Origin: an uncultured Planctomycetia bacterium
GTDB lineage: Bacteria > Omnitrophota > Gorgyraeia > Duberdicusellales > 4484-171
NCBI GenBank assembly: GCA_964489445.1
Contig: CAZAYU010000002.1
Coordinates: 355,900 to 419,899 of the forward strand
Direction: 5' to 3'
Length of the DNA stretch: 64,000 nucleotides
Made by a program: the position numbers and the translations under genes. Below, in pieces: positions 1,660 through 22,550 of this stretch (positions within the stretch are counted from its first letter, which is position 1; every line of letters begins with the position of its first letter). The notes beneath the pieces were generated by a model that saw nothing but the letters and a program-made list of their open reading frames with translations, did no database searches and had not been told where the DNA came from.

Positions 1660-3300
1660 ATGTTAACTGTAAAAATAAAAAACATAATACACTTTTTTAA
1701 AGAGAAAGGTCAAGCATTTTTCCTGTTACTTTTGTGTTTTTATTCAGTAATATTGCATTTTTTTTGGCTTAGGTTAGACAGAACTCCTCCGTGGGGGAAT
1801 GGCATTCCTAGTATCTTAAGAGGGATATATTTTTTTCAAATGCAGGGTGAATGGAGCTTTTGGGAATTTATTAAGGAAATGTCTATTGGATATAATATTA
1901 AGCAAATGTCTATCGGACTTGATTCTACCTACCCACCATTAGTAGATTTTAGTTATTTTGTTTATTATAAATTATTTGGACTTTCCTCAGAAATGGACTT
2001 AATGGTAAATTCAATATATTTAATTATAGGGATAGTAGGGGTGTATGGAATTGGAAAAAATCTTTTTAATAAAAATACAGGGTTATTCTCAGCTCTGATA
2101 TTTGCCTCGTTTCCAGGAGTTTTACTATGTAGCAAATCAGGATTTAAAGAATTTCAGGTGATGTGTTTTATTGCCTTGGCGATATATTTTCTTTTAGAGT
2201 CAAGAAATTTCACAAATAGAAAATTTTCTCTTCTATTCGGTATTTCCGCGGGTTTAATGATGATGGTTAAATATGAGGCAATTATTTTTTTAATAGTTCC
2301 CTTGACTATTGTTTTTGCAAGGATTGTAGTTAACAAAAACATTCTTAAAAACAATGCCTTACCTTGGATTATTAATCTTATGCTAAGCTTAATTATTGTA
2401 ATTTTGATTGGTTTCCCATGGTATATATTAAGTTGGCGAAATTTTTTAGAACATATGCTTTACCGTGCTGATTCTGCAGGCATGGGGGATATTTATTTTT
2501 CAACAAAGGAGCTAACTTATTACTTTCATACTCTGGATTCTGAATTGTTAACTGTAACCTATGGAGTTTTATTCCTTGCCATATATGTATATAGCTTGCT
2601 CAAAATGTTAAACCCAAAGACTATGACGATTGGTATTAAGCGAATAGTACTACTCTGTTTTTATTTTACATTCCCATTCTTGTTTTTTAGTTTTTTATCC
2701 GGAAAGAGTTTTGCGCATATATGTCCATTGTTGGTATTTGCAAGTGTTATTATAGCCGGAGGGATCAGTATCATAAGAAATAGGTTTGTTAGGTTTATCT
2801 TTATTTGCCTAATATTTTTTCACGCTATAAGTCTCCCACTTATGTGGTTGTCAACAGCCGTTAAAGATAATTGGAATTTTAAGCTTAAAGAAATTATTCA
2901 ATTTATAAAAGAAGATTACTATGGCCCAAATCTCAAAGATTATAGTGGGACCAAGAAACCTTTCGTTCTTGTATTAGTAAACGATGGACCCCTTAGGTAT
3001 CACCAAATACAATATTATAATATGAAGGAATATTTACCTATAGAATTGGTTGAACGGTATGGTGAAAACGTAAAACCAGAGGAAGATATTTTTGGAAGTA
3101 AATATGAGTATATTCTTTCAGAAATTCCAACTAACTTTATACATCCAAAAGAAGACGACAGCATAAAAGAGCTTCTCAAGTTTATCGACGACAATACAGA
3201 AAGATTTTTTAAAAATTATGTAGTAGCATGCGAAATTGAAGTACCGAGGTCCTCAAAGGTAATTATTTACAAAAGAGTAAACGATGATGTTAATAAATAA
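1660..3300 (+). CDS. GT-C fold membrane glycosyltransferase (ArnT/PMT_2-like, polyprenyl-phosphate-sugar dependent), paralog 1
   Basis: Multi-TM N-terminal half with block 'YPPLVDFSYFVYYKLFGLSSEMDLMVNSIYLIIGIVGVYGIGKNLFNKNTGLFSALIFASFPG'. The block is clearly paralogous to the ORFs at 11471 and 20214. The C-terminal half is a soluble domain. Confidence 0.7.
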   Translation: MLTVKIKNIIHFFKEKGQAFFLLLLCFYSVILHFFWLRLDRTPPWGNGIPSILRGIYFFQMQGEWSFWEFIKEMSIGYNIKQMSIGLDSTYPPLVDFSYFVYYKLFGLSSEMDLMVNSIYLIIGIVGVYGIGKNLFNKNTGLFSALIFASFPGVLLCSKSGFKEFQVMCFIALAIYFLLESRNFTNRKFSLLFGISAGLMMMVKYEAIIFLIVPLTIVFARIVVNKNILKNNALPWIINLMLSLIIVILIGFPWYILSWRNFLEHMLYRADSAGMGDIYFSTKELTYYFHTLDSELLTVTYGVLFLAIYVYSLLKMLNPKTMTIGIKRIVLLCFYFTFPFLFFSFLSGKSFAHICPLLVFASVIIAGGISIIRNRFVRFIFICLIFFHAISLPLMWLSTAVKDNWNFKLKEIIQFIKEDYYGPNLKDYSGTKKPFVLVLVNDGPLRYHQIQYYNMKEYLPIELVERYGENVKPEEDIFGSKYEYILSEIPTNFIHPKEDDSIKELLKFIDDNTERFFKNYVVACEIEVPRSSKVIIYKRVNDDVNK

Positions 3301-3312
3301 GTCTATTTTAAA

Positions 3313-4374
3313 ATGAAAATACTTTCTGTAGTCGGTACAAGGCCTAATTTTATTAAAGAATATGCAATGGACATGGCTTGTCGGAAGATGGGCGTAAAGA
3401 AGATCCTTGTTCACACAGGACAACATTATGATTTTGAAATGTCGGAAACGTTCTTTAAAGAATTATCATTGCCTAAGCCAAAATACATTAATGTAATGAA
3501 AAAGGAGAGTCATGGCAAGGAAACCGCTTGCATGTTATCTTTTTTAGAGGAGGTGCTCATAAAAGAAAGGCCTGATGTGACATTGATATATGGTGATGTA
3601 AATTCGACGTTAGCAGCAGCTCTGGCATCAGTGAAACTAAGGATACCCACAGCACATGTAGAAGCAGGAATTCGGTCATGCGATAGGTATAATCCTGAAG
3701 AAATTAATCGGACGGTTGCTGATTGTGTATCAGATGTTCTATTTGCCGCTACTCAAGAGGACTATGAATCTTTGCTAGAAGAAGGGTATTCAAAAAAAGA
3801 TATATTCTTAGTCGGTGATATAGTAAAAGACAGTCTAAAGACCATAATTAAAAAATATAGTATAAAAATCAGTCGGGGAAATTATCATCTAGCTACGGTG
3901 CACAGGATGGAAAATGTTACCTCTGGCATTAGACTTAAAAACATTGTTGAGGCGTTTATAGAATCAGAGAGGCATATAAAATTTCCATTGCATCCAGGAA
4001 CTAAGAAGTACTTAAAGAAGTATAATCTTTTTAAAAAACTTAAGGAAAACAATAATATAGAGCTGCTTCCCGCATTAGGATATACAGAATTTATTAAACT
4101 TTTGGCAGGCGCAGATAAGGTGTTAACTGATTCTGGAGGGGTAAGAAGAGAGGCCTATCTTTTAAAAAAACCCATTATTTCTTTAATTAATATTGTGTGG
4201 TTCCCTTCTTTAGTGAATTGTGGATGGAAATATGTTGCTGATGCACAAAAAAGTAAAATAGTTGATGCCATTTACAATTTTAGACCGAACTTGTTACATC
4301 CTAATATATTCGGTAATGGTCAGGCTGCCATGAAAATATTGTCTATTTTAAAAAAACGCTATGGGAGATATTAA
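3313..4374 (+). CDS. wecB: UDP-N-acetylglucosamine 2-epimerase (non-hydrolysing), WecB/MnaA family
   Basis: Family motifs 'VVGTRPNFIK', 'HTGQHYD' and 'HVEAGIRS' are present. Length of 353 aa fits. Confidence 0.8.
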   Translation: MKILSVVGTRPNFIKEYAMDMACRKMGVKKILVHTGQHYDFEMSETFFKELSLPKPKYINVMKKESHGKETACMLSFLEEVLIKERPDVTLIYGDVNSTLAAALASVKLRIPTAHVEAGIRSCDRYNPEEINRTVADCVSDVLFAATQEDYESLLEEGYSKKDIFLVGDIVKDSLKTIIKKYSIKISRGNYHLATVHRMENVTSGIRLKNIVEAFIESERHIKFPLHPGTKKYLKKYNLFKKLKENNNIELLPALGYTEFIKLLAGADKVLTDSGGVRREAYLLKKPIISLINIVWFPSLVNCGWKYVADAQKSKIVDAIYNFRPNLLHPNIFGNGQAAMKILSILKKRYGRY

Positions 4375-5095
4375 GAAAAAAATATCCATCGTGATACCTT
4401 GCTATAATGAAGAAGAATCATTAGATATATTATTCTTAAAGCTTGCAGATGTAGAGAGAATTATTAAATCTAAATATGATTTAGAGATTATTTTTATTAA
4501 TGATGGAAGCATTGATGATACTCATGAGAAATTAGCCAAGAGATATGATGGTAGGAATGATATAAGTATAGTGACTTATGAGAAGAACCATGGATATGGA
4601 TATGCGTTGAAAAAAGGGTTTAAAAAAGCTAGCGGGGATTTTGTGATTTCTATAGATGCAGACACTAATTATGAGCATAGGGAAATACCAGATATCTTGG
4701 TAAAGATGGAAAATAGCCCTGATATCGACATAGTTATAGCATCGCCTTTTTCTCAGAACGGAAAATGGCGCTATTCTGGATTTCGATTTATTTTTAGTCG
4801 ATCATTATCTGGAATTTATGGTCTGGTTCTTCAAGGTAAAAAAAGTGGTATTAGTACGTACACTTCCTGTTTTAGGGTTTATCGTAAAGATGTTTTGTTT
4901 GGTATTTTTCCTGAGTCAGATGACTTTGTGGCTAACGCAGAGATAATTATACGGGCAATATTTAAGGGTTACAGAATAGAGGAATATGCGACACAAGTTT
5001 GTAAGCGAGAATTTGGTAAATCAAAGATGAAGATAGTTAAAACAATAGTAAGCCATATAAAGTTTATTTGGAAGATCCTTAAGAAAGGGGTTTAA
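4361..5095 (+). CDS. GT2 polyprenyl-phosphate glycosyltransferase (ArnC/DPM1/GtrB-like)
   Basis: N-terminal 'ISIVIPCYNEEESL' and 'FINDGSIDDT', with a DxD-type 'SIDADT'. It overlaps the upstream stop by 14 nt. Confidence 0.75.
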   Translation: MGDIKKKISIVIPCYNEEESLDILFLKLADVERIIKSKYDLEIIFINDGSIDDTHEKLAKRYDGRNDISIVTYEKNHGYGYALKKGFKKASGDFVISIDADTNYEHREIPDILVKMENSPDIDIVIASPFSQNGKWRYSGFRFIFSRSLSGIYGLVLQGKKSGISTYTSCFRVYRKDVLFGIFPESDDFVANAEIIIRAIFKGYRIEEYATQVCKREFGKSKMKIVKTIVSHIKFIWKILKKGV

Positions 5096-6963
5096 TGTGT
5101 GGAATCTGTGGTATCTACAATCTAGACAAGAGACCTGTTAAAAAAAGCTCCATTCTAAGTATGCGCGATATAATGTCTTATCGCGGGCCAGATGATAAGG
5201 GAGTAATCATTTGCGATGGGTTGGGACTGGGCCATAGGCGTCTTTCGATAATTGATCTCTCGTCTGCTGCACACCAACCGTTTTCTAATGAATATCATAA
5301 TTTATGGCTTGTTTTTAATGGTTGTATTTATAATTACAAAGAGCTGCGTCATGAATTAGAATTAACAGGCAGGCATTGTTTTAAATCTAATTCTGATACA
5401 GAGGTAATTATTCATGCGTACGAAGAATGGGCTGAAGGGTGTCTAAAAAAGTTTGTTGGAATGTTTGCTTTCGCTATCTACGATACTAAGCTAAAAAGAC
5501 TTTTTCTTGCAAGAGATCCTTTTGGGATCAAACCTCTTTATTATTCTAAAATTGGCAATAGTTTTGTCTTTGCTTCAGAGATTAAATCAATCATGCAATA
5601 CAGAAAAGATAAAGCAGTAGATCTAGAGGCCGTTTCTGATTATTTGACATTTCAGTATATACTGGGAGACAAAACATTTTTTAAAAGTGTAAAGAAACTT
5701 TTGCCCGGTCATTTTATGTTTATAGTTGAGGATGGTTTAAAAATTAAAAAATACTGGGATGTAACATTTAATGTAGATTTTAAAAAATCGCCTCAGGATT
5801 TTAAAAAAGAACTTCTTTTTTTACTAGAAGATTCCGTTCGCTTACAAACAAGGAGTGATGTACCTTTAGGTGCGCATTTGACTGGTGGCATTGATACAGC
5901 TTCTATACTTTGCTTAGCGACAAGGTTTGTAGATTGTCCGATTAAAACCTTTATGGCTGGTTTTAAAGAAGGAGGGGTGTACGATGATACTTCATGGGGA
6001 AGAATAACCTCAAAATTTGCAAATACAGAACATTTCGAGATATTTCCTTCTTCCGATGATTTTAAAACATATTTTTCAACTATTATATGGCATCTTGATG
6101 AACCCATTGCTGCACCGGGTATATTTGGCCAATATATGGTATCCAAATTAGCCAGCCAAAATGTTAAGGTTGTCCTTGGGGGCCAGGGCGCAGATGAAAT
6201 GATAGGAGGGTATGCAAGGTATTATCTTTTATACATTGATAGGCTGTTGCAGAAAGATATTGCAGAAAATTCCGAGATTTTAGGTTTAAGCAAATTACAT
6301 AATTTTGGTCAACTTAAAAACTACAAGTTGCTAGAAACTGATTTTTTGCAGGATCAAAATGGTAGCTCGATTGATGAAAGATATTTTAAATTAATTAAAA
6401 GATGCGGTGATTTAGGTTCAATGCTCACTCCTCAAATTACAAAAGAATTGAATGGCTATTCATCATTTTTTGCTTTTAAACAAATATTTAATAAAAATAA
6501 TAACATAGAGCTTTTGGACAAGGTTTTATATTATGAGATAAAAACATGGTTGCCAGCTTTATTACAGGTAGAAGATAGAATGAGTATGGCATTTTCCTTA
6601 GAATCTCGAATCCCATTTCTGGATTGCAGGATAGCCAATCTTTTATTTAGCATGCCTGTGGGCATAAAATTTAAAGGTGGTAGGCTGAAACACATATTAA
6701 GAGAAGCAACAAAGGGCATAATTCCAGAAAGGATTAGGTGCAGGAACGACAAAATTGGTTTTCCAGTGCCAACAACGCAGTGGTTTAAAGGTCCTTTAAA
6801 TGGCTTCGTTAAAGATCTCTTGTTGTCAAAGAAGAGCAGAAACAGAGGAATTTTTAAACAGGGATTAGTTGAAAAAGCAATTAACAACAATTCAGAGTTT
6901 AGCAGGGAACTCTGGGGGTTAATATGCCTTGAGACATGGTTTAGGGTGATGGTAGATAATTAG
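5095..6963 (+). CDS. Asparagine synthase (glutamine-hydrolysing)-like amidotransferase (AsnB/WbpS-like)
   Basis: Begins 'MCGICGIY' (Ntn Cys2 glutaminase). A C-terminal AsnB synthetase-domain PP-loop region follows (the 'LTGGIDTASILCLAT' match is suggestive rather than exact). 622 aa. Confidence 0.85.
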   Translation: MCGICGIYNLDKRPVKKSSILSMRDIMSYRGPDDKGVIICDGLGLGHRRLSIIDLSSAAHQPFSNEYHNLWLVFNGCIYNYKELRHELELTGRHCFKSNSDTEVIIHAYEEWAEGCLKKFVGMFAFAIYDTKLKRLFLARDPFGIKPLYYSKIGNSFVFASEIKSIMQYRKDKAVDLEAVSDYLTFQYILGDKTFFKSVKKLLPGHFMFIVEDGLKIKKYWDVTFNVDFKKSPQDFKKELLFLLEDSVRLQTRSDVPLGAHLTGGIDTASILCLATRFVDCPIKTFMAGFKEGGVYDDTSWGRITSKFANTEHFEIFPSSDDFKTYFSTIIWHLDEPIAAPGIFGQYMVSKLASQNVKVVLGGQGADEMIGGYARYYLLYIDRLLQKDIAENSEILGLSKLHNFGQLKNYKLLETDFLQDQNGSSIDERYFKLIKRCGDLGSMLTPQITKELNGYSSFFAFKQIFNKNNNIELLDKVLYYEIKTWLPALLQVEDRMSMAFSLESRIPFLDCRIANLLFSMPVGIKFKGGRLKHILREATKGIIPERIRCRNDKIGFPVPTTQWFKGPLNGFVKDLLLSKKSRNRGIFKQGLVEKAINNNSEFSRELWGLICLETWFRVMVDN

Positions 6964-8795: not shown

Positions 8796-8804
8796 TAAAA
8801 AAAG

Positions 8805-14791: not shown

Positions 14792-14809
14792 GGAATTGGT
14801 TTAAAAAAT

Positions 14810-15838: not shown

Positions 15839-15861
15839 AAAATTTTTAAGGGAGATCCAAC

Positions 15862-16464
15862 ATGAATGATAATAAGAATAAAAAAAGAAGCTATTTTGTT
15901 CATAAAAGTTCTTACATTGATGATAATGTAAGAATCGGAAATGGTACCAAGATTTGGCATTTTTGTCATATTCGTGAAGATTCAAGTGTAGGCAAAAACT
16001 GTATTATTGGCCAAAATGTAATGATAGATTCTAATGTGGAAGTTGGAGATGGGTGCAAGCTACAAAATAATGTTTCTATATATAAAGGGGTCATATTAGA
16101 AGAGAATGTTTTTTGTGGGCCGTCTTGCGTGTTTACTAATGTGTATACCCCTCGAGCATTTATTGAAAGAAAGAGTGAATTTTTACCTACCTTAGTTAAA
16201 ACCGGAGCCAGTATTGGAGCGAATGCTACTATTGTCTGCGGAATTAATATTGGCAGGTATGCCTTTATAGGCGCTGGTGCGGTAGTAAAAAGAGATATCC
16301 CTGATTATGGATTAGTTGTAGGGGTTCCTGCGAAGCAGATAGGTTGGGCATGCAAGTGTGGTGTTACTCTTTGCTTTCAAAGAGGTGAAACTAGATGTGG
16401 CTATTGCGGGAGTGAGTATAGATTGGTGAATAGAAGCTTTGAAATTGTAAGAGAGGCGGTGTAA
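15862..16464 (+). CDS. Hexapeptide-repeat (left-handed beta-helix) N-acetyltransferase, WbpD/PglD-like, with a C-terminal four-Cys tail
   Basis: Repeated [LIV]G-x4 hexapeptide turns ('IGNGTKIWHFCHI', 'VGKNCIIGQNVMIDSNVEVGDGCKLQNNV'). The tail 'CKCGVTLCFQRGETRCGYCGSEY' is CxC...CxxC. Confidence 0.75.
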   Translation: MNDNKNKKRSYFVHKSSYIDDNVRIGNGTKIWHFCHIREDSSVGKNCIIGQNVMIDSNVEVGDGCKLQNNVSIYKGVILEENVFCGPSCVFTNVYTPRAFIERKSEFLPTLVKTGASIGANATIVCGINIGRYAFIGAGAVVKRDIPDYGLVVGVPAKQIGWACKCGVTLCFQRGETRCGYCGSEYRLVNRSFEIVREAV

Positions 16465-17606
16465 TGCAAATTTTAATGTTGGATTTAAAAAGGCAGTATG
16501 AATATATGAGAAGAGATATAAATCCAGTCATCAGAAAATGCCTAAAACGCCAACAATGGATACTTGGCCCTGAGGTGAAGAAGTTTGAGGAAAAAATAAG
16601 CGAATATCTTGGAGTAAAGCATTGTCTGGGGGTTTCTTCTGGCACAGACGCCCTTGTTCTTTGTCTAAGAGCATTGGCAATAAAACTGAAAGGTCGGGAG
16701 TATTTTGACAGAGATGACAGAATTATAACTACACCATTTACATTTATAGCTACAGGAGATGCTATTTTACGTGCAGGTGCAACGCCTGTCTTTGTTGATA
16801 TTGATCCAGTAACTTACAATATTAACGTAAATAAAGTGAAAGATTATTTAATTTCGGCTTCGAATGTGGTAGGAATTGTTCCTGTTCACTTTTATGGTCA
16901 AGCTTGCGATATGGATGATATACTACGAATAGCTAAAGAATGCAAGTTGTTCGTAGTGGAAGATGTAGCCCAAGCCTTTGGAGGCAAGTGGAAGGAGAGA
17001 AAATTAGGTTCTATGGGAGATATTAATGCATTTAGTTTCTTTCCTAGCAAAAATCTTGGTGGGTTTGGCGATGGAGGAATGGTAGCCACAAACAATAATG
17101 AGATGGTCCAAATAACAGAGTTGCTAAGAAGACACGGGGGAAAGGATGGACGTAATGCTGAATATATTGGTTACAATGCAAGGCTTGATGCCTTGCAGGC
17201 AGGGGTACTTCTTGCCAAGATGAAATATATAGAGGAATTTAATGATAAAAAAAGAAAGAATGCAGAAATTTACAACGAAGGGTTGAAAGCGATAAAAGGT
17301 ATCATGTTGCCGGCATCTTTGCGGGAGGCACATCATGTTTATCATCAGTATACTATTAGGGTTCTAAATGGCAGAAGAGATGAGCTCCAAAGGTATCTTA
17401 ACGCAAATGGCATAGGCACAAGGGTCTATTATCCTACGCCGTTGCATAAAATGGAAGTTTTTCAAGGTAAGTGTGAAACATTAGAAAGCCTCAAGGAAGC
17501 AGAGAAAGCATCAAGAGAAGTTTTAAGCTTGCCAATAGACCCTTTGTTAACCCAGAAAGAATTAAAGAAAGTAATTAAGTACATAGCAATTAAACTGAAA
17601 ATTTAA
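16464..17606 (+). CDS. DegT/DnrJ/EryC1/StrS-family PLP-dependent sugar aminotransferase (WbpE/ArnB/GnnB-like)
   Basis: 'DINAFSFFPSKNLGGFGDGGMVATNN' block; the PLP-binding Lys lies in 'FFPSKNL'. 380 aa. Start overlaps the previous stop (TAATG). Confidence 0.85.
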   Translation: MQILMLDLKRQYEYMRRDINPVIRKCLKRQQWILGPEVKKFEEKISEYLGVKHCLGVSSGTDALVLCLRALAIKLKGREYFDRDDRIITTPFTFIATGDAILRAGATPVFVDIDPVTYNINVNKVKDYLISASNVVGIVPVHFYGQACDMDDILRIAKECKLFVVEDVAQAFGGKWKERKLGSMGDINAFSFFPSKNLGGFGDGGMVATNNNEMVQITELLRRHGGKDGRNAEYIGYNARLDALQAGVLLAKMKYIEEFNDKKRKNAEIYNEGLKAIKGIMLPASLREAHHVYHQYTIRVLNGRRDELQRYLNANGIGTRVYYPTPLHKMEVFQGKCETLESLKEAEKASREVLSLPIDPLLTQKELKKVIKYIAIKLKI

Positions 17607-17778
17607 TAGTCTTAAAAAACATGCCATCCCTTTAACTGTAACCAAAAAAGCAAAAAATGTTGAAAGAAATTGACGCATTTGATAAGGAGATCAGCACTTT
17701 AATGCTATATTATTTTTTTTGTTAAAAGGGGCAGCGTATCGAAAGCTAGGTTTTCAATATTCATTAATCATTCGCTAA

Positions 17779-17973
17779 AGAAGGAAGTTTAAAGTAACGA
17801 CAAATTCAAAACATAGTTATCCTGTATGGCCCGATATTTTAAACTGGCGCTTTATTGCAAACGAACCTAATGTTATATGGGAATCAGATATAACATATAT
17901 CTGGACTCGCGAAGGCTGGTTGTATTTAGCGGTAACACTTGACCTGCATTCTCGCGGTATCAATACACTATGA
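17779..17973 (+). mobile_element. Degraded IS3-family transposase (OrfB, integrase-core) fragment
   Basis: Translation 'NSKHSYPVWPDILNWRFIANEPNVIWESDITYIWTREGWLYLAVTLDLHSRGINTL*' matches the IS3 OrfB block '...P..VW.SDITYI....GW.YLA.V.D..SR.IVGW'. It is bounded by stops. No full transposase or inverted repeats were recognised. Confidence 0.6.
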
Positions 17974-18271
17974 GGGATTTATAGTGTCGGATCAATATGC
18001 AATTGCTCGGATTGATGAATGGCCTTACTACGGTTTCTTTTATCCTGATAATGTATATGGGGTGCAATTTCATCCGGAGCCAAGTAATGGTGCAGGAAAA
18101 TTTTTAGTTAAATTACAAAGATTCTTATTTGATCATAATGTTTATCAGGAGTTTTCAGCAAAAACACTTTCTAAACATGGAAGGCGATATTTAATAATTT
18201 TATTAACAAATGCCAATAGTTACAGTATAATATTGCTTTATTTACTAAACTTATCTGTTGTTTATAATTGA
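17939..18271 (+). pseudogene. Gene fragment carrying a class-I glutamine amidotransferase signature (GVQFHPE), likely a pseudogene remnant
   Basis: 'YGVQFHPEPSNGAGKFL' resembles the conserved GATase1 C-terminal block. There is no N-terminal catalytic Cys region. It begins inside the transposase remnant and has no RBS. Confidence 0.35.
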
Positions 18272-19323
18272 TGTTATTTATTAGAGTCATTAAATATTCA
18301 TTTAAGATAGTCTTATCTTTATTGTTACTAATTATTTTGTTAGAATTAGGTTCAAGATTTATTGTTCTAATTACTTTAAATAATTTTTTCAATAAATATT
18401 TGCCGGATAGCTACGAGAGTATAGCTGTCCAAGCTCAGAATGATACATATAGCTTTCTTAAGTCTTCAACGTTGCCAGATTCTCAGTGTTATTATATATG
18501 GAAAAATGGATTTTTCAGGGGGCCAACAGGTCAGTTTGATATTTATGGTAAGGAAAGCGATGAAATCAGAGTAATGTGTGTAGGTGATTCTACCACTTTT
18601 GGAGTATGTGTAGATTATTATTGGTCTTACCCTACAATATTAGAGAGGCTGTTAAAAGCAAAATATCCAGAATCAAATATAGGGGTACTAAATACTGGTA
18701 TTCCTGGGGCTTCATCGAAACAAATAAAAAGAGTTTTTCAGAAATATCTAGTAAAGTATAAGCCAGATATTGTTGTTTGGCGTACAGGAGTAAGATTAAC
18801 CGATCATTATGATTTACCTCAGAGCTTAGAAAATCCTATTAACAATTTATTGTGGAATATACTATCCAAGTCTACTTTATTTAGGTTGATTTGTTTATTT
18901 GTTGACAGGGTGATTCCGGATAAGCCTCCGGTAGATCATACATTGTATTCTTATCTAATAGAAAGAAATACGACATTGGAGCCTTGTGGTAATTTTGATT
19001 CAAATTTCGCCATAGTAAATGATATTGCGCGAAGCAATGGAACTAAATATGTTTTAGCTGTTGATTATTTGAGGCGGGATTTAGATGGTTCTCAGAATAT
19101 TACAAGCGACTTTGATGATTACCCAGATAAAGATGTGCCTCCGGTAGTAAATACTTATGAAACTTTTAAAGAAATATTAATGGACGTAGATATCAATGAT
19201 GTATTCGTTGACGAATGTCATCTTACAAGGTTAGGCACAAGCGTTATTGCTAATGCAGTGGCTGAACATATAACTACTAATGGTTGGATTGATAGTTTTA
19301 CAAATAAGCATCCAGACGGGTAA
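18268..19323 (+). CDS. SGNH/GDSL-family hydrolase or acyl-esterase with an N-terminal TM anchor
   Basis: Block I 'IRVMCVGDSTTFG' (GDS nucleophile). C-terminal block V 'DECHLTRLG'. It is paralogous to the ORF at 54641. Confidence 0.7.
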   Translation: MMLFIRVIKYSFKIVLSLLLLIILLELGSRFIVLITLNNFFNKYLPDSYESIAVQAQNDTYSFLKSSTLPDSQCYYIWKNGFFRGPTGQFDIYGKESDEIRVMCVGDSTTFGVCVDYYWSYPTILERLLKAKYPESNIGVLNTGIPGASSKQIKRVFQKYLVKYKPDIVVWRTGVRLTDHYDLPQSLENPINNLLWNILSKSTLFRLICLFVDRVIPDKPPVDHTLYSYLIERNTTLEPCGNFDSNFAIVNDIARSNGTKYVLAVDYLRRDLDGSQNITSDFDDYPDKDVPPVVNTYETFKEILMDVDINDVFVDECHLTRLGTSVIANAVAEHITTNGWIDSFTNKHPDG

Positions 19324-19338
19324 GATGTCGTCTGATGC
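19308..19338 (+). terminator. Imperfect inverted repeat (hairpin) overlapping the stop codon of the SGNH gene
   Basis: 'gcatccagacg' then loop 'ggtaagatgt' then 'cgtctgatgc', followed by an AT-rich tract. A possible terminator. Confidence 0.3.
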
Positions 19339-19460
19339 ATTTCATTCTAAAATTATTTATATAATAAAACATGGTTAGAGAAAATGCATTATTTCCAAAA
19401 AAAGTTTCTTAATAAAGGGAAAATAGAAAAAGTTTATATTATTCTGTTATCAGATTCGCC

Positions 19461-19706
19461 TTGTTTGCGCTAAAATTTAACATAAAAACAGGCATCAAAG
19501 TATATAAACAAGATAAAAAACATATGCTTAAATGGGCTAAAGAAAAATTTCCTAAATATCTTATATTTAAAGAATTAATTAATTTTTTTTGTAAGAATAG
19601 GCTATGGTGGATGATACCATTAATTATTGCTTTTGTATTCTCAGCAGTGTTAATATGGTTTTGTCAGTCTTCGGCAGTATCTTCCTTGATGTACACTCTA
19701 TTTTAA
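19461..19706 (+). CDS. Small membrane peptide (81 aa, or 60 aa from the internal ATG at 19524) with one C-terminal TM helix, ending ...SSLMYTLF
   Basis: '...NRLWWMIPLIIAFVFSAVLIWF...SSLMYTLF'. It resembles the unannotated peptide at 54486 (KWW + TM + FIYSLF). From memory (unverified), it also resembles the DUF5989 small-membrane-peptide family, whose C-terminus ends 'FIYTLF'. Confidence 0.45.
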   Translation: MFALKFNIKTGIKVYKQDKKHMLKWAKEKFPKYLIFKELINFFCKNRLWWMIPLIIAFVFSAVLIWFCQSSAVSSLMYTLF

Positions 19707-20213
19707 TGTCGTGATTTGTTTAAGTGTCAGGAGAATAAACATTTATTATGAATAAGGATATTGTTGATAAGGAATGGGTTACAAATATGGATGTGTAGGC
19801 TACTAATTAATTTGGGCGTTATAGGGTATTATTTATTGGAAAAGATAAAGTTATGTTATTCTCTATTGTTTAGGGTCACAGCTGGGAATTAATTATGGGG
19901 TGAATTGGTAAAGCAAGGTATGGATTGAAAATATTACTCTTGAAATATGGGTGTTAATACAATTACCTTCCTGGAATACTTTTTTCGAGAGTAAGCCTCA
20001 GTGCTTTTTATATAAATTATACTTGGCTCTATGGTAAATAGTTTCTTGGTGTATTAATATAATTGCTGTGCAAGATTTATTTAAGTGCTATAGGCAAAAA
20101 CGGTTTGAAGAGTCTGGAGTAGTTATTTGTTTTTAGAAGCTAAAAAATGTAGTATAGCTAGAAGATAAAAATTAACGAAAGGCGGCGAAAAACTTTCGGC
20201 GTAAATATTTGAT

Positions 20214-22550
20214 ATGATAGATAAGTCTAAGAAATATTTTCCAGCGATGCTATTAATTGCAATTATACTATTGCATATAACTTCTAATTATGTTTGGTTA
20301 AAAAAAGATGATACCTACCTTATGCATGATGCGCATCATAATTTTTTGTTTAGCCTGGGTGTGTTTCATCAAATCCAAGAAAGTTTTATTCCTTTTTTAA
20401 GCGATGTGTTTAGTAAAATCATTTATCACCGTTGGCATGGAGTGTTAGTCGGCTACCTTACAGCACCTTTTTATTTTATTTTTGGTGCCGGCCAAGATAT
20501 AGGGGTGATGGTTAGCAGTACTATTTTTTTAAGTATATTAATTCTTTCAGTGTACGGGATTGGAAAACTAATTCATAGTCGGGCCTCCGGATTACTTTCC
20601 GCATTTCTTATAAGTATTTATCCAATGGTTTTTAATCATTTACGTACGTATATGCTGGATTTACCGCTTACCTCAATGGTAAGTCTAAGCGTGTATTTGC
20701 TGTTAAGGACAAAGTTATTTTCTCAAAGGTTATTTTCACTATTTTTTGGAATATCTATGGGGTTGGGGTTGTTAACAAAATTTAATTTTATCGGCTTTAT
20801 AATCGGACCGCTATTATTTATTTTTTACAAAGCATTCAATATTAAACAAAGTAAAATAAATACAGAACGAAAGAAAATTTTTCATTTTTTTATTATTATT
20901 TGCTTGTCGTTTATTCTTGTGCTTCCTTTTTTAAGGATAAAATTCTGGGAAGTTTTTTCACGATTTTATGAATGTTCATGGCTAAATCCGGTATTTAATA
21001 CTTCTTATGATTCGGTTTTTATTCTTTTTGTCCATTGGTTTTTTGGAGGATGGCAGTTTATTGTTTGGTGTTTCCGGGAAATGAAAGATAGCATTCTATC
21101 GCCTTTATTTTTTTTAATTTTTATTATCAGTTTTTTCATGTTCAAACGAAGTCATGCTAAGTATAGATCGGTTTTTTATTTATGGATACTATTTCCGGTA
21201 TTTGTTTTAAGTTTTGTTTTTCATTATCCGGCAATAAATCGTTATCTAATGCCTTGTTTACCGGCAATAGCAATAGTTTCAGCGATAGGATTAATGACTT
21301 TAAAACCTGTTTTTTTGCGCAGAATAATTATTTTCTTGGTAATAAGTTGTGGAGTTGTCCAATATTTTATTATTTCTTATGGTTATCCTGCTTTTTTTAA
21401 TAATTCAGATGCAAGCTTACCAAAAATAGTTTCAAGATTAAAAAATAGTATATCTTACCGTGATGTTCCTATTGATTATCGAAATGGGCTAAATCGAGGC
21501 GCAAAACCGTCATTATCAAAATGGCCTGTTGAAGAAATTTTAAATAAATTATTAATAGAAGCAAGAGGCTGTCCGCAAAAAATAACAGTTTTTTTCATTG
21601 ATCCTGTTCCGGAAATATACGAGCCAATAGAGTATTTATGCTTGGCAAATAATTATCCAATAGAAATTCACGTTAATTCCTTAAGCGAAGAAGAATCCTA
21701 CAGGGATAAAGAAGAAGATTTTGAACCAAAAAATATGCCTGACTATGTATTAATGGTTGATAATCCGGATAGGGCCAATGATTATCTTCCTATTTCTGTG
21801 AAAGAGAGAATTAACAATTCCCGTAAAAATTTCCAAAATATTCAGGACGAATATGCCTTATGCAATGTTTTTAGGTTGTCAGAAGAAAGTAATATTTTAT
21901 TGTTCAGAGATGCCAGTGAGTCCGTGCGTTTAGAAACACCATTAATTACTGCAGTATTTAAGAGAGGGCGTGTAAGGCTATTTTTTAATGATTATCCTGA
22001 CAGTGAACCTTTATTTATCGTTAATTCCTTTGATTTTGAGGGAGAAAAATATTTGTCAACAGAGATGGAATGGGAGATTAATAAAAGTAGCAAGAAAACA
22101 ATCATGGCTCTTGGTAAGTTGAAAAATTCAGCATTAAGGCAAACATGGAGTTTCTCTGTAAATGAGAATCAAGAAGGAGAATTTAACGCTATTGTTAGCG
22201 CAGAAGAAGAAATAAAAGATAGCATCTTTTCGATTGAAATTCCTAGTTATTATCAGGAATGGGAAACGTCTTTAGAACGAGGTGAGTTTGGTAAAAAGAC
22301 TATATTAAGATATTGCTTCAGGGAATTGTTGTCACCGGTAGACTGTATAACTTTTTGTAAGTTAAGAAGAAGGAATGTGCCCCGCTTTACTTTATTGCCA
22401 AGTTCGGGAGAATGTGATATTAGCTCGTTATTAGCTTATAAAAAAGATCGGCGTATCGTTCAATTTAGGTTGAGCGAGCAAAAGAATAATCAGTATTCTT
22501 TGGATAAAAGTTTAATGAATTCATTTACTCTAAAAATTAAATTCGATTAA
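20214..22550 (+). CDS. GT-C fold membrane glycosyltransferase (ArnT/PMT_2-like), paralog 3, with a long C-terminal soluble domain
   Basis: The block 'YLTAPFYFIFGAGQDIGVMVSSTIFLSILILSVYGIGKLIHSRASGLLSAFLISIYP' is collinear with paralogs 1 and 2. 778 aa. About 12 TM helices, then a roughly 350-aa hydrophilic domain. Confidence 0.65.
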   Translation: MIDKSKKYFPAMLLIAIILLHITSNYVWLKKDDTYLMHDAHHNFLFSLGVFHQIQESFIPFLSDVFSKIIYHRWHGVLVGYLTAPFYFIFGAGQDIGVMVSSTIFLSILILSVYGIGKLIHSRASGLLSAFLISIYPMVFNHLRTYMLDLPLTSMVSLSVYLLLRTKLFSQRLFSLFFGISMGLGLLTKFNFIGFIIGPLLFIFYKAFNIKQSKINTERKKIFHFFIIICLSFILVLPFLRIKFWEVFSRFYECSWLNPVFNTSYDSVFILFVHWFFGGWQFIVWCFREMKDSILSPLFFLIFIISFFMFKRSHAKYRSVFYLWILFPVFVLSFVFHYPAINRYLMPCLPAIAIVSAIGLMTLKPVFLRRIIIFLVISCGVVQYFIISYGYPAFFNNSDASLPKIVSRLKNSISYRDVPIDYRNGLNRGAKPSLSKWPVEEILNKLLIEARGCPQKITVFFIDPVPEIYEPIEYLCLANNYPIEIHVNSLSEEESYRDKEEDFEPKNMPDYVLMVDNPDRANDYLPISVKERINNSRKNFQNIQDEYALCNVFRLSEESNILLFRDASESVRLETPLITAVFKRGRVRLFFNDYPDSEPLFIVNSFDFEGEKYLSTEMEWEINKSSKKTIMALGKLKNSALRQTWSFSVNENQEGEFNAIVSAEEEIKDSIFSIEIPSYYQEWETSLERGEFGKKTILRYCFRELLSPVDCITFCKLRRRNVPRFTLLPSSGECDISSLLAYKKDRRIVQFRLSEQKNNQYSLDKSLMNSFTLKIKFD

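What the first reader, a model, noticed from the sequence alone, without database searches (positions are those of the whole stretch)
1660..22550. ArnC/ArnD/ArnT-like lipid-linked aminosugar route with three GT-C paralogs
A GT2 ArnC-like enzyme (4361) and an ArnD-like deformylase (10208) match my recollection of E. coli ArnD block by block. Three paralogous ArnT/PMT-like GT-C membrane transferases (1660, 11471, 20214) accompany them. The UDP-sugar enzymes at 14810-17606 (dehydrogenase, acetyltransferase, aminotransferase) sit in the same strand-polar block. In Gram-negatives the Arn system moves a formylated aminosugar onto undecaprenyl phosphate, deformylates it and transfers it to lipid A in the periplasm. 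Here the triplicated GT-C suggests three different periplasmic transfer steps from polyprenyl-P-sugars, to lipid, glycan or protein acceptors. No ArnA-type formyltransferase/decarboxylase was seen, so the N-acyl group removed by the ArnD-like enzyme is unclear. It could be acetyl from the WbpD-like enzyme.
Basis: partly seen in the sequence, partly recalled or inferred. Interest (0 to 1): 0.6.

Follow-up and report, generated by a model that had tools for sequence, protein, structure and literature searches.

The report
Arn-like lipid-linked aminosugar glycan locus
An uncultured Omnitrophota bacterium carries a surface-sugar gene cluster that appears to reuse the logic of the polymyxin-resistance Arn pathway (load a sugar on a lipid carrier, strip its N-acyl group, hand it to membrane transferases), but with diverged parts and vitamin-B12 radical enzymes attached; it is a new variant of a known scheme, not a new kind of system.

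Summary
The 10226-11137 product belongs to the ArnD family rather than to generic NodB deacetylases (ArnD model 153 bits, next NodB model 37 bits; PDB ArnD E 7.6e-27, next 1e-5). The 244-aa GT2 matches full-length only polyprenyl-phosphate glycosyltransferases (DPMS, ArnC, GtrB), but has no membrane helices. All three GT-C proteins pass PF13231. They form one family whose profile is homologous to ArnT (hhalign 99.2%).

None of them is an Arn orthologue. All score far below the curated cut-offs. ArnA, ArnT, ArnE and ArnF have no match in the window. The ArnD-like clade carries Cys where ArnD has its second DxD Asp.

The window is a Candidatus Omnitrophota MAG. The block GT-C / WecB epimerase / GT2 / AsnB-like / unknown 564-aa protein / B12-rSAM / ArnD-like / B12-rSAM recurs in related contigs. 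The UDP-sugar genes look like a 3-dehydrogenase, 3-aminotransferase and WlbB-type 3-N-acetyltransferase set, so a 2,3-diacetamido sugar is likely and acetyl is the probable leaving group.

The pathway is inferred from homology and synteny only. Verdict: new variant of a known kind, moderate interest.

The parts
130..1314 (+). GT4 glycosyltransferase, conserved upstream partner of the GT-C1 gene
   Evidence: PF00534 88.8 bits. Orthologues (479-513 bits) precede GT-C1-type genes in L087, L088, L090, L091, L095 and L098.
1391..1654 (+). Small conserved 87-aa protein (weak DUF5666-like). Candidate partner or acceptor of the GT-C.
   Evidence: Homologues lie directly upstream of every GT-C1-type gene where upstream sequence exists (35-76 bits). 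Some loci carry a second copy with a lipoprotein signal peptide. DUF5666 match is E 0.003, below threshold.
1660..3300 (+). GT-C1: PMT_2/ArnT-related membrane glycosyltransferase. About 12 hydrophobic segments, then a soluble tail of about 150 aa.
   Evidence: PF13231 53.4 bits. 37% identical to GT-C2. Hydropathy. Family profile against ArnT.
3313..4374 (+). Non-hydrolysing UDP-GlcNAc 2-epimerase (WecB/WbpI type). Overlaps the GT2 start by 14 nt.
   Evidence: TIGR00236 255.9 bits, above the cut-off of 210. PF02350 269 bits.
4361..5095 (+). Polyprenyl-phosphate-type GT2 (DPM1/ArnC/GtrB class), 244 aa, no TM helix
   Evidence: Best PDB hits are PfDPMS 5MLZ (E 6e-20, residues 6-241), ArnC 9BHC (1.5e-17) and GtrB 5EKE (3e-16). 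NCBIfam ArnC 81.7 bits. It has a DAD motif and REFGKSK aligned to ArnC REFGDSK. The roles of ArnC R205, S210 and K211 are taken from PMC12690121. No TM segment, against two in E. coli ArnC.
5095..6963 (+). AsnB-like glutamine amidotransferase (WbpG / XrtA-amidotransferase-like). Its start shares a base with the GT2 stop.
   Evidence: PF00733 274 bits plus GATase_6/7. TIGR03108 467 bits, below the cut-off of 817. Conserved after the GT2 gene in L090, L092 and L096.
7101..8795 (+). Unknown 564-aa cytoplasmic protein, conserved member of the block
   Evidence: No Pfam, NCBIfam or PDB match in my searches. The precomputed annotation gives PF25840 Ulvan_lyase_N for the identical gene in L001. Orthologues score 1112 and 819 bits in L090 and L092.
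8805..10223 (+). B12-binding radical SAM enzyme. Its stop lies 2 nt before the ArnD-like start.
   Evidence: PF02310 plus PF04055. Best NCBIfam models are BchE 243.8 and HpnJ 207.1 bits, both below cut-off. Orthologues lie directly upstream of the ArnD-like gene in L090, L092 and L093.
10226..11137 (+). ArnD-family (NodB-fold) lipid-linked-sugar N-deacylase homologue. Clade-specific Cys15 replaces ArnD Asp11.
   Evidence: NF011923 153.3 bits over its full length; the next NodB model scores 37 bits. 8T0J E 7.6e-27; next NodB structure 1e-5. 26 columns are invariant in A2, including D13, H107, E108, H112, H116, D178, R180, H239 and E243, mapped to ArnD numbering. No TM segment.
11471..13075 (+). 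GT-C2: paralogue of GT-C1. About 13 TM helices plus a C-terminal alpha/beta domain in the AF2 model. Absent from the orthologous block in L092/L093.
   Evidence: PF13231 37.1 bits. AF2 model pLDDT 88.3. Foldseek hits are STT3, ArnT, AglB, ALG12, AftA/AftD, PglB and Pmt4. Synteny.
13068..14585 (+). B12-binding radical SAM enzyme. Overlaps the GT-C2 stop by 8 nt.
   Evidence: PF02310 plus PF04055. Its orthologue (819 bits) directly follows the ArnD-like gene in L092/L093.
14810..15838 (+). GFO/IDH/MocA nucleotide-sugar 3-dehydrogenase candidate (GnnA/WbpB-like)
   Evidence: NF040723 UDP-GlcNAc 3-dehydrogenase 173.7 bits, below the cut-off of 450. PDB hits are 3C1A at 2e-22 and 7BVJ at 1.4e-16.
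15862..16464 (+). WlbB/WbpD-type 3-N-acetyltransferase
   Evidence: 3MQG (lipopolysaccharide biosynthesis acetyltransferase) E 8e-63, 215 bits, residues 13-189.
16464..17606 (+). DegT-family sugar aminotransferase whose closest solved relatives are, from my own knowledge, C3-aminotransferases
   Evidence: 7B0D 314 bits, QdtB 262, WbpE 227 and an ArnB-type enzyme (4LC3) 160. E. coli ArnB 120 bits.
17700..18271 (+). Decayed IS3-type transposase fragment plus the C-terminal stub of a HisH-like glutamine amidotransferase (pseudogene region)
   Evidence: The frame translation contains '[28 protein letters not shown]' and 'GVQFHPE'. Weak HisH hits.
18268..19323 (+). SGNH/GDSL-like hydrolase with an N-terminal TM anchor
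   Evidence: PF13472 and PF00657, weak. One TM segment.
19461..19706 (+). DUF5989 small membrane protein
   Evidence: PF19451 44.5 bits.
20214..22550 (+). GT-C3: distant paralogue. N-terminal GT-C membrane domain of about 390 aa plus an unassigned C-terminal domain of about 380 aa.
   Evidence: PF13231 46.0 and PF02366 30.9 bits. hhalign gives 100% to the A3 family over 373 columns and 95.7% to the ArnT family. No Pfam match for the C-terminal domain.
22580..24055 (+). B12-type radical SAM enzyme paired with GT-C3
   Evidence: PF04055 44.7 bits; the B12-binding match is weak. Best NCBIfam model is HpnJ, 134.8 bits, below cut-off. GT-C followed by a B12-rSAM gene recurs in L087-L089, L095, L097 and L099.

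Best explanation
This is part of a large cell-envelope glycan locus of a Candidatus Omnitrophota bacterium. It contains a polyprenyl-phosphate-monosaccharide ('Arn-type') decoration branch.

Shown here:
- The gene families.
- The paralogy of the three GT-Cs.
- Placement of the deacylase in the ArnD family.
- The Pren-P-GT class of the GT2.
- Conserved synteny with tight gene overlaps.
- The absence of ArnA, ArnT, ArnE and ArnF homologues from the window.

Inferred pathway:
1. A GFO-type 3-dehydrogenase, a C3-type aminotransferase and a WlbB-type acetyltransferase make a UDP-2,3-diacetamido-2,3-dideoxy-hexose. The WecB-type enzyme 2-epimerises a UDP-HexNAc-type sugar.
2. The TM-less DPM1/ArnC-class GT2 transfers one such N-acetylated sugar to undecaprenyl phosphate at the cytoplasmic face.
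3. The peripheral ArnD-family metallo-amidase removes an N-acyl group from the lipid-linked sugar. That group is most likely acetyl rather than formyl. This exposes an amine, and the enzyme may use a Cys-His-His metal site in place of Asp-His-His.
4. The flanking B12 radical SAM enzymes, the AsnB-like amidotransferase and the unknown 564-aa protein tailor the sugar further. The chemistry is unknown; C-methylation or amidation are candidates.
5. After flipping, the three ArnT-related GT-C enzymes transfer lipid-linked sugars to periplasmic acceptors. The acceptor could be LPS or another glycan, a lipid or a protein. It is not determined.
For: Organism and setting:
- Cluster mates 64% identical to the ArnD-like protein are named Candidatus Omnitrophica/Omnitrophota.
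- The window is 33% G+C and nearly all genes are on one strand.

ArnD family:
- NF011923 scores 153 bits over the full length; other NodB models score 37 bits or less.
- 8T0J gives E 7.6e-27, against 1e-5 for the next NodB structure.
- Most of its named homologues are annotated as ArnD or Ara4FN deformylase.
- All invariant family residues are kept except the D11 equivalent.
- In 80 reference-genome loci the family sits mostly in arn operons. ArnA is a neighbour in 48, ArnC in 30, a GT-C in 21. The family's known job is therefore deacylation of Und-P-linked aminosugars.

GT2:
- Full-length matches go only to Pren-P GTs, namely PfDPMS, ArnC and GtrB.
- NCBIfam's full-length hits are ArnC, a dolichyl-phosphate hexose transferase, PpgS and AglJ.
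- It has the DXD motif, and equivalents of ArnC R205, S210 and K211 are present.

GT-Cs:
- All three pass PF13231.
- The 70-sequence family profile hits ArnT 5EZM at E 4e-8 and PMT1 at 0.011.
- hhalign against a canonical ArnT alignment gives 99.2% probability and E 1.3e-19 over 261 columns. 'YPP' aligns to ArnT 'KPP', an acidic E/D174 to the ArnT 'LD' Asp, and K214 to 'TKG'.
- The AF2 model (pLDDT 88) has the GT-C fold with about 13 TM helices and a C-terminal soluble domain.
- The N-terminus is Lys-rich, so the first loop would face the periplasm.

Linkage:
- Epimerase and GT2 overlap by 14 nt. The GT2 stop and AsnB start share a base. The rSAM stop is 2 nt from the ArnD-like start. GT-C2 and the next rSAM overlap by 8 nt.
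- The block is conserved in other Omnitrophota-like contigs: L090, L092 and L096.

Sugar branch:
- The acetyltransferase scores 215 bits to WlbB 3MQG.
- The aminotransferase is closest to QdtB, WbpE and 7B0D, not to ArnB.
- The best NCBIfam model for the GFO protein is UDP-GlcNAc 3-dehydrogenase.
- No formyltransferase is present.
Against: - Nothing biochemical is known. Every step rests on homology at 24-37% identity, and all Arn-like scores are far below the curated equivalog cut-offs.
- The GT2 lacks the TM helices of ArnC, GtrB and DPMS. By alignment it also lacks the equivalent of the acceptor-phosphate Arg, ArnC R128 / PfDPMS R117.
- The GT-C family lacks the Lys of ArnT's 'FEKPP' motif. 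Its first-loop region does not align to ArnT.
- No ArnE/F- or GtrA-type flippase gene lies in the region. Only Wzx-type flippases are present, at 27036 and 60052.
- The contigs that share the synteny come from close relatives, so conservation of gene order is weak evidence of functional coupling.
- In the more distant locus type (L087) the GT-C/rSAM pairs occur without any ArnD-like gene.
- The ArnD-like gene's tightest partners are rSAM genes, not the GT2 or a GT-C. GT-C2 is missing from the orthologous block in L092/L093.
- The Asp-to-Cys change could alter or abolish the classical activity.
Confidence: 0.5

Rival explanations
1. The Arn-like parts do not form one pathway. They are separate modules of a large glycan island. 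The ArnD-like enzyme would work only with its two flanking B12 radical SAM enzymes, on a nucleotide sugar, an Und-PP-linked repeat unit or a non-glycan amide. The GT-Cs would take donors made elsewhere.
For: - The tightest and most conserved neighbours of the ArnD-like gene are rSAM genes.
- ArnD-like next to B12-rSAM recurs in unrelated contexts: L102, L103 and L104.
- GT-C/rSAM pairs occur without an ArnD-like gene in L087.
- GT-C2 is absent from L092/L093.
- The window also holds Wzx flippases, four GT4 and several other GT2 genes typical of a Wzx/Wzy-type pathway.
Against: - The ArnD family is otherwise found overwhelmingly with ArnC- and ArnT-type genes.
- In L103 and L104 the rSAM-associated ArnD-like genes still sit beside an ArnC-length GT2, a DegT gene and a formyltransferase.
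- A Pren-P-class GT2 and ArnT-related GT-Cs in one co-directional block with the deacylase is what a single pathway predicts.
Confidence: 0.25
2. The GT-Cs are PMT-like protein O-glycosyltransferases. Their acceptors would be envelope proteins, for example the small DUF5666-like proteins or lipoproteins encoded directly upstream of GT-C1-type genes, rather than lipid A or a polysaccharide. This concerns the acceptor only and is compatible with a Pren-P-sugar donor.
For: - The Pfam families hit are PMT_2 and, for GT-C3, PMT.
- PMT1 is the second-best PDB profile hit, and Pmt4 is among the fold matches.
- A small conserved protein always precedes GT-C1-type genes. It has lipoprotein-signal paralogues in L090, L097, L098, L100 and L101.
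Against: - ArnT is a much better profile match than PMT1 (4e-8 against 0.011).
- No MIR domain is present.
- The copy of the small protein in the window has no signal peptide.
- The rest of the block is glycan-building machinery.
Confidence: 0.12
3. This is a canonical Arn system that adds L-Ara4N to lipid A for resistance to cationic peptides.
For: E. coli ArnB, ArnC and ArnD each find a homologue in the window (120, 67 and 94 bits). Omnitrophota are presumably diderm (my own knowledge); a DUF2490 gene at 33103 is at most weakly suggestive.
Against: - No ArnA-like domain of either kind, and no ArnT, ArnE or ArnF match.
- All scores are far below the equivalog cut-offs.
- The aminotransferase is closest to solved enzymes I take to be C3-type, not to the ArnB type.
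- The GT2 lacks TM helices.
- A canonical ArnT HMM barely detects the GT-Cs.
- The neighbouring epimerase, WlbB-like and AsnB-like genes point to HexNAc-derived sugars.
Confidence: 0.03

Closest known systems
Arn (PmrHFIJKLM) pathway of Enterobacteria: ArnB, ArnC, ArnA, ArnD, ArnT, ArnE/F
   Same: The same three-step logic and homologous catalysts. A GT2 of the Pren-P class loads an N-acylated aminosugar on Und-P. An ArnD-family NodB enzyme removes the acyl group. An ArnT-related GT-C transfers the sugar outside the cytoplasm (pathway as summarised in PMC12690121).
   Different: No ArnA (so no formyl group and no Ara4N), and no ArnE/F. The GT2 has no TM helices. The ArnD-like protein has Cys for Asp11 and is 26% identical to E. 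coli ArnD. There are three divergent GT-Cs instead of one ArnT. The genes are embedded among B12-rSAM, AsnB-like and epimerase genes.
Bordetella LgmA/LgmB/LgmC (GlcN on lipid A) and Francisella FlmF2/NaxD/FlmK (GalN on lipid A)
   Same: These are Arn-like routes that modify lipid A with an amino sugar. lgmA, lgmB and lgmC are required for the GlcN modification (PMC4993483). That the sugar is HexNAc-derived and the group removed on the lipid carrier is acetyl is from my own knowledge. It is the chemistry proposed here.
   Different: Those systems have one GT-C, target lipid A phosphates and have no radical SAM partners. From my own knowledge, NaxD is a YdjC-type rather than a NodB-type deacetylase. 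Homology of the window proteins to the Lgm or Flm proteins was not tested.
Rhizobium RgtA/B/C/D with RgtE (dodecaprenyl-P-GalA donors)
   Same: Several paralogous PMT_2-family GT-Cs in one organism each transfer the same kind of Pren-P-monosaccharide to different LPS positions. This is the precedent for 'three GT-C paralogues, three transfer steps'. The statement rests on my own knowledge.
   Different: The donor there is a uronic acid and there is no deacylase. Not compared at sequence level here.
Hopanoid side-chain route HpnI (GT2), HpnK (deacetylase), HpnJ (B12 radical SAM)
   Same: The same triad of activities acting on a lipid-bound HexNAc: glycosyl transfer, N-deacetylation, then a B12-rSAM step. 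BHT cyclitol ether needs hpnI, hpnK and hpnJ (PMC5462960). The window rSAMs have HpnJ among their best NCBIfam models (207, 111 and 135 bits).
   Different: All scores are far below the HpnJ cut-off of 577.6. From my own knowledge, HpnK is not a NodB/ArnD-type enzyme. There are no hopanoid genes in the window. This is an analogy only.
WbpB/WbpE/WbpD/WbpI (WlbA-D) and GnnA/GnnB nucleotide-sugar pathways
   Same: 3-dehydrogenase, 3-aminotransferase, 3-N-acetyltransferase and 2-epimerase homologues are all present. WlbB scores 215 bits, WbpE 227 bits and WecB-type TIGR00236 passes its cut-off.
   Different: No WbpA-type UDP-GlcNAc 6-dehydrogenase is present in the window. The GFO enzyme matches 7BVJ, not a WlbA/WbpB structure, at E <= 1e-10. 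I recall 7BVJ as GnnA, but the PDB record names it only as an oxidoreductase. The sugar may therefore be the non-uronic GlcNAc3NAc.

Membership tests
ArnD (4-deoxy-4-formamido-L-arabinose-phosphoundecaprenol deformylase, NF011923) | Full-length similarity to ArnD that clearly exceeds similarity to other NodB/CE4 families | tested here: met
   NF011923 153.3 bits (residues 15-300 on profile 4-285/294), against 37.4 bits or less for other NodB models. 8T0J E 7.6e-27 against 1e-5 for the next structure.
ArnD (NF011923) | Score above the curated equivalog cut-off (382 bits) | tested here: not met
   153.3 bits. ArnD proteins from canonical arn operons score 150-300 bits against E. coli ArnD by phmmer; the window protein scores 94.
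ArnD (NF011923) | Conserved catalytic and metal residues of the NodB-type site (StArnD D9, D11, H106, H110, R174, H233) | tested here: inconclusive
   D13, H112, H116, R180 and H239 are conserved. The D11 equivalent is Cys15 in the window protein and in its 79% and 64% relatives, and Asp in the other 19 of 22 sequences.
ArnD (NF011923) | Genomic association with arnA (formyltransferase/decarboxylase), arnB, arnC and arnT | tested here: not met
   No ArnA, ArnT, ArnE or ArnF match in the window. Among 80 reference loci, ArnA is a neighbour in 48.
ArnD (NF011923) | Deformylation of Und-P-L-Ara4FN | not testable with these tools
   Needs an enzyme assay.
ArnC (NF007986) | Equivalog-level score (529 bits) and an architecture of GT-A domain, JM helices and two C-terminal TM helices | tested here: not met
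   81.7 bits covering profile positions 6-216 of 316. No hydrophobic segment, against two in E. coli ArnC. The architecture is as described in PMC12690121.
Polyprenyl-phosphate glycosyltransferases (Pren-P GT2: DPMS/DPM1, GtrB, ArnC, PpgS) | GT-A domain with a DXD motif plus the C-terminal R-x-x-G-x-S-K segment, and closest relatives in this class | tested here: met
   The top seven PDB sequences are PfDPMS, ArnC (three) and GtrB (three). DAD at 'SIDADTNY' and REFGKSK aligned to ArnC REFGDSK. ArnC R205, S210 and K211 are described. The equivalent of ArnC R128 / PfDPMS R117 is not conserved in the alignment.
Polyprenyl-phosphate glycosyltransferases (Pren-P GT2) | Transfer of a sugar to Und-P or Dol-P | not testable with these tools
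   Needs an enzyme assay.
PMT_2 (PF13231; GT-C of the ArnT/PMT/Rgt type) | Score above the Pfam gathering threshold (26.1 bits) | tested here: met
   53.4, 37.1 and 46.0 bits for the three proteins.
GT-C fold | Multi-spanning N-terminal domain with the conserved GT-C core, plus an extracytoplasmic C-terminal domain | tested here: met
   AF2 model of GT-C2, pLDDT 88.3 and pTM 0.88, with about 13 long helices and then an alpha/beta domain. Foldseek hits are STT3 6e-7, ArnT 1e-6 (TM-score 0.53/0.53), AglB, ALG12, AftA/AftD, PglB and Pmt4. GT-C1 and GT-C3 were assessed by hydropathy only.
ArnT (GT83, lipid A Ara4N transferase) | Orthologue-level similarity, including the N-terminal first-loop region and the (Y)FEKPP motif | tested here: not met
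   Homologous by profile: hhalign 99.2% and E 1.3e-19 over 261 columns; 5EZM E 4e-8. However, a canonical ArnT HMM gives only 22.7 bits, no hit and 11.7 bits. The first 80 profile columns do not align. The motif is YPP without Glu-Lys.
Oligosaccharyltransferase (STT3/PglB) or O-antigen ligase/polymerase | Sequence match to the STT3 or Wzy_C/O-antigen ligase families | tested here: not met
   No such Pfam or NCBIfam hits. STT3 and PglB appear only as generic GT-C fold matches at 10-13% identity.
WlbB/WbpD UDP-GlcNAc3NA 3-N-acetyltransferase | Close full-length similarity to the solved enzyme | tested here: met
   3MQG 215 bits, E 8e-63, residues 13-189 against 6-185. Specificity for the uronic or non-uronic substrate was not tested.

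The most novel reading that the evidence does not exclude
The ArnD-family deacylase and its flanking B12-dependent radical SAM enzymes form a tailoring module that acts on an undecaprenyl-phosphate-linked aminosugar. The deacylase would unmask the amine. The rSAM enzymes would then carry out radical C-methylation or an HpnJ-like ring rearrangement on the lipid carrier. This would create unusual sugar donors, which the paired GT-C enzymes install on the Omnitrophota envelope. If so, 'Arn-type deacylase plus cobalamin rSAM plus GT-C' would be a recurring, undescribed route of envelope decoration in uncultured diderm bacteria.
Probability: 0.2. Interest if true: 0.7.

Novelty: new variant of a known kind. 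Interest (0 to 1): 0.4.

Why it matters
Decoration of the bacterial envelope from polyprenyl-phosphate-monosaccharides by GT-C enzymes is a widespread strategy. It underlies polymyxin resistance (Arn) and immune evasion (Lgm, Flm).

This locus suggests the ArnD deacylase family has been recruited outside the Ara4N pathway. It sits in a candidate phylum of nanobacteria whose surface chemistry is unknown. It has an acetyl-type substrate, an altered presumed metal ligand (Cys for Asp) and cobalamin radical SAM partners.

If the module is real, it would give a concrete set of genes for finding new lipid-linked sugar chemistry and for predicting Omnitrophota surface structures. If not, this is simply another diverse O-antigen- or capsule-like island.

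Tried and rejected
- Single-sequence phmmer of GT-C1 and GT-C3 against the PDB found nothing. The 5-sequence profile A1 also found nothing. Only the 70-sequence profile reached ArnT.
- The first AF2 run, on a 5-sequence alignment, gave an unusable model (pLDDT 47.7). It was discarded and redone with 70 sequences.
- The word-indexed homologue search for the GT-C returned only 4-6 proteins because of its candidate cap. The exhaustive search showed the family is sizeable: 130 representatives at E <= 1e-30 and 1573 at E <= 1e-10.
With A1 it gave only 8 loci.
- The exact look-up of the 309-aa TTG-start product failed. The public gene call starts at GTG 10226.
- The ArnD structure paper is not held, so residue roles are inferred from NodB motifs.
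- I tested whether the 'orphan' ArnD homologues in Geobacter and Holophagaceae replace HpnK in hopanoid clusters. L033 and L046 show no hopanoid genes. The nearby rSAM in L033 is KedN5-like and separated from the ArnD homologue by a FadL gene. Rejected.
- A canonical Arn/Ara4N system is rejected. OST or O-antigen ligase identity for the GT-Cs is rejected.
- Literature searches for Omnitrophota glycan or rSAM modules, and for rSAM plus ArnT, found nothing relevant.

Full report
**What is there**

The window is 33% G+C with strongly positive GC skew, and almost all genes lie on the + strand. The ArnD-like product is identical to a public protein found on contigs of up to 452 kb. Cluster mates of its 64%-identical relative are named Candidatus Omnitrophica/Omnitrophota. 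The source is therefore an uncultured Omnitrophota MAG.

Region 1-24 kb encodes, in order:

| Start | Product |
|---|---|
| 130 | GT4 glycosyltransferase |
| 1391 | 87-aa protein |
| 1660 | GT-C1 |
| 3313 | WecB-type 2-epimerase |
| 4361 | 244-aa GT2 |
| 5095 | AsnB-like amidotransferase |
| 7101 | unknown 564-aa protein |
| 8805 | B12-binding radical SAM (rSAM) |
| 10226 | ArnD-like protein |
| 11471 | GT-C2 |
| 13068 | B12-rSAM |
| 14810 | GFO-type dehydrogenase |
| 15862 | hexapeptide acetyltransferase |
| 16464 | DegT aminotransferase |
| 17.7-18.3 kb | decayed IS and amidotransferase remnant |
| 18268 | SGNH hydrolase |
| 19461 | DUF5989 peptide |
| 20214 | GT-C3 |
| 22580 | a further rSAM with a weak B12-binding-domain match (third of the B12-type rSAMs in the region) |

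Downstream lie GT4 and GT2 genes and a Wzx-type flippase.

**The ArnD-like protein**

- It matches the ArnD equivalog model over its whole length (153 bits, E 8e-45). Every other NodB model scores 37 bits or less.
- In the PDB it hits Salmonella ArnD at E 7.6e-27 and the next NodB protein at 1e-5.
- It is 26% identical to E. coli ArnD over 297 residues.
- Its database relatives, at 30-38% identity, are annotated as Ara4FN deformylases in many diderm phyla.
- In 80 reference-genome loci the family sits mostly in arn operons, with ArnA beside it in 48, ArnC in 30 and a GT-C in 21.

It is not an orthologue, however. The score is below the curated cut-off of 382. In addition, the window protein and its 79% and 64% relatives read VDLCT where 19 of 22 aligned sequences read VDVDT. 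That puts Cys15 in place of Salmonella ArnD Asp11. D13, H107/E108, H112, H116, D178, R180, H239 and E243 are all retained. By analogy with the D-x-D / H-x3-H arrangement of related NodB enzymes, Asp11 would be the metal ligand. A Cys-His-His site is chemically plausible, but this is inference, because the ArnD structure paper was not available.

**The GT2**

- Its only full-length matches are polyprenyl-phosphate glycosyltransferases: PfDPMS (E 6e-20, residues 6-241), ArnC (1.5e-17) and GtrB (3e-16).
- NCBIfam ranks ArnC first (81.7 bits against a cut-off of 529). It also gives full-length alignments to a haloarchaeal dolichyl-phosphate hexose transferase, PpgS and AglJ.
- It has the DXD motif (DAD). 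Its REFGKSK aligns to ArnC REFGDSK, and ArnC R205, S210 and K211 contact the nucleotide donor (PMC12690121).
- The equivalent of the acceptor-phosphate Arg (ArnC R128) is not conserved in the alignment.
- The protein has no TM segment, whereas E. coli ArnC has two.

It is best described as a TM-less DPM1/PpgS-like member of the Pren-P GT class.

**The GT-C proteins**

- All three pass PF13231.
- GT-C1 and GT-C2 are 37% identical end to end.
- GT-C3 aligns to their family profile at 100% probability over 373 columns, and has an extra, unassigned domain of about 380 aa.
- An exhaustive search shows a sizeable family, with 130 representatives at E <= 1e-30.
- A 70-sequence profile hits ArnT 5EZM at E 4e-8 and PMT1 at 0.011.
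- hhalign against an alignment of canonical ArnTs taken from the arn loci gives 99.2% probability and E 1.3e-19 over 261 columns.
- In that alignment the family's YPP falls on ArnT KPP. An almost invariant acidic residue (E/D174, 68 of 71 sequences) falls on the Asp of ArnT's 'LD' motif. K214 falls on the 'TKG' Lys.
- The AF2 model of GT-C2 (pLDDT 88) has about 13 TM helices and a C-terminal alpha/beta domain.
- Foldseek returns GT-C enzymes only (STT3, ArnT, AglB, ALG12, AftA/AftD, PglB, Pmt4) and cannot rank among them.
- A canonical ArnT HMM barely detects the three proteins (22.7 bits, no hit, 11.7 bits).

They are therefore ArnT-related GT-Cs, not ArnT orthologues, and not OST or O-antigen-ligase family members.

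**The sugar branch**

- The acetyltransferase is a close homologue of WlbB (215 bits).
- The aminotransferase's closest solved relatives are QdtB, WbpE and 7B0D (227-314 bits), which I take from my own knowledge to be C3-aminotransferases. An ArnB-type enzyme scores 160 bits.
- The best NCBIfam model for the GFO enzyme is UDP-GlcNAc 3-dehydrogenase. Its best PDB matches are 3C1A and 7BVJ.
- No WbpA-type 6-dehydrogenase and no formyltransferase occur anywhere in the 64 kb.

A UDP-2,3-diacetamido-2,3-dideoxy-hexose, 2-epimerised by the WecB-type enzyme, is the most likely product. All of this is inference.

**Linkage and comparative context**

Gene junctions are tight:

- epimerase and GT2 overlap by 14 nt;
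- the GT2 stop and the AsnB start share a base;
- the rSAM stop is 2 nt from the ArnD-like start;
- GT-C2 and the next rSAM overlap by 8 nt.

Related metagenomic contigs repeat the block. L090 and L096 carry GT4 / small protein / GT-C1 / epimerase / GT2 / AsnB / (rSAM) / 565-aa protein / rSAM / ArnD-like. L092 and L093 carry epimerase / GT2 / AsnB / rSAM / 548-aa protein / rSAM / ArnD-like / rSAM / GFO / acetyltransferase. In L092/L093 there is no GT-C2, so the conserved core around the deacylase is rSAM / ArnD-like / rSAM.

A more distant locus type (L087, L095) has GT4 / small protein / GT-C / B12-rSAM / GT-C / rSAM / rSAM / AsnB without any ArnD-like gene.

Five of the nearest homologues outside the clade were examined:

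| Locus | Context of the ArnD-like gene | B12-rSAM nearby |
|---|---|---|
| L102 | rSAM gene overlaps it | yes |
| L103, L104 | SDR / DegT / ArnD-like / GT2 / formyltransferase, then B12-rSAM | yes |
| L106 | SDR epimerase and PLD-like gene | no |
| L107 | arn-like operon with a GT-C-PAP2 fusion | no |

. Only 3 of 80 reference loci have an rSAM gene within 8 kb. A rough NJ tree places the window clade beside P0006 and P0013, the ArnD-like proteins of L103 and L104. It carries no support values and is only suggestive.

**Interpretation**

The family assignments and the gene order best fit an Arn-type branch inside a large envelope-glycan locus. A nucleotide HexNAc-type sugar would be loaded on Und-P by the Pren-P-class GT2 and N-deacylated on the lipid by the ArnD-like enzyme. 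The rSAM, AsnB-like and unknown proteins would probably tailor it. After flipping, ArnT-related GT-Cs would use it. I put this at about 0.5.

The main rival, at about 0.25, is that the deacylase belongs to an rSAM tailoring module with a different substrate, and that the GT-Cs are fed independently. The acceptor is open. Candidates are LPS or another glycan, a lipid, or a protein. The last possibility is raised by the small DUF5666-like protein that precedes every GT-C1-type gene, which has lipoprotein-signal paralogues in other loci. A canonical Ara4N system is excluded in practice.

**Comparison and novelty**

The scheme is that of Arn, and of its HexNAc-based relatives LgmABC and Flm/NaxD. 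Rhizobium Rgt is the precedent for several paralogous PMT_2 GT-Cs. The triad of GT2, deacetylase and B12-rSAM has a formal analogue in hopanoid HpnI/HpnK/HpnJ (PMC5462960).

The differences are:

- a TM-less GT2;
- an ArnD-family enzyme outside an arn operon, with the Asp-to-Cys change;
- cobalamin rSAM partners;
- three divergent GT-Cs;
- the phylum.

I found no description of such a module in the searchable literature. I rate it a new variant of a known kind, with interest about 0.4. The most novel reading not excluded is radical tailoring of a lipid-linked aminosugar. I give that about 0.2 probability, and it would be clearly interesting if true.

Noticed in passing
window 17,700-18,271: Between the DegT gene and the SGNH gene lies a fragment of an IS3-family transposase core ('[28 protein letters not shown]'). 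It is followed by the C-terminal stub of a HisH-like class-I glutamine amidotransferase ('GVQFHPE'). This looks like an old IS insertion that truncated a gene of the cluster.
   Followed up: partly
window 1391-1654; L087, L090, L097, L098, L100, L101: An 87-aa protein (sub-threshold DUF5666 match) is conserved immediately upstream of every GT-C1-type gene. It is often duplicated, and the second copy carries a lipoprotein signal peptide. GT4 / small protein / GT-C is a conserved triad. The small protein is a candidate GT-C partner or acceptor.
   Followed up: partly
window 8805, 13068, 22580, 36624, 38079, 48610, 61450, 50419: The density of radical SAM genes is unusual. Seven B12-type rSAM genes lie in 64 kb (the B12-binding match of the one at 22580 is weak), only 21-36% identical to each other. 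There is also an rSAM-AMP-ligase fusion (50419-52857) next to an acyl-carrier protein (50111-50416).
   Followed up: partly
window 10226-11137, residue 15; P0002, P0004: A clade-specific Cys replaces the second Asp of the ArnD D-x-D motif (StArnD D11). The other invariant residues are kept. This may mean a Cys-His-His metal site.
   Followed up: partly
L102 669-2950; L103 5744-12520; L104 5780-13307: Outside the window clade, ArnD-like genes also sit with B12-rSAM genes. In L103 and L104 this is within arn-like operons that have a split ArnA (separate SDR and formyltransferase genes), DegT and an ArnC-length GT2.
   Followed up: partly
L107 3485-5731: An arn-like operon encodes a 748-aa fusion of a PMT/PMT_2 GT-C with a PAP2 phosphatase domain.
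   Followed up: no
L016, L028, L033, L034, L042, L044, L046, L054, L055, L060, L061, L067, L070, L077 and others: About 25 of the 80 reference loci, mainly Holophagaceae/Acidobacteriota and Geobacteraceae, have an 'orphan' ArnD homologue with no arn gene within 8 kb. Two that I checked (L033, L046) show unrelated neighbours such as KdpA, FadL, signal peptidase and ThiE.
   Followed up: partly
window 30960-33002, 40404-42344, 52975-54402, 56193-57446, 57495-58853; 44482-48332: Five sulfatase/alkaline-phosphatase-superfamily genes and two MBOAT acyltransferases, each beside an unassigned protein (42722, 45878), lie downstream. This points to further modification of the envelope polymer.
   Followed up: no
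window 19461-19706 and 19707-20213: A DUF5989 small membrane protein follows the SGNH hydrolase. It is followed by about 500 nt with no convincing ORF before GT-C3.
   Followed up: no
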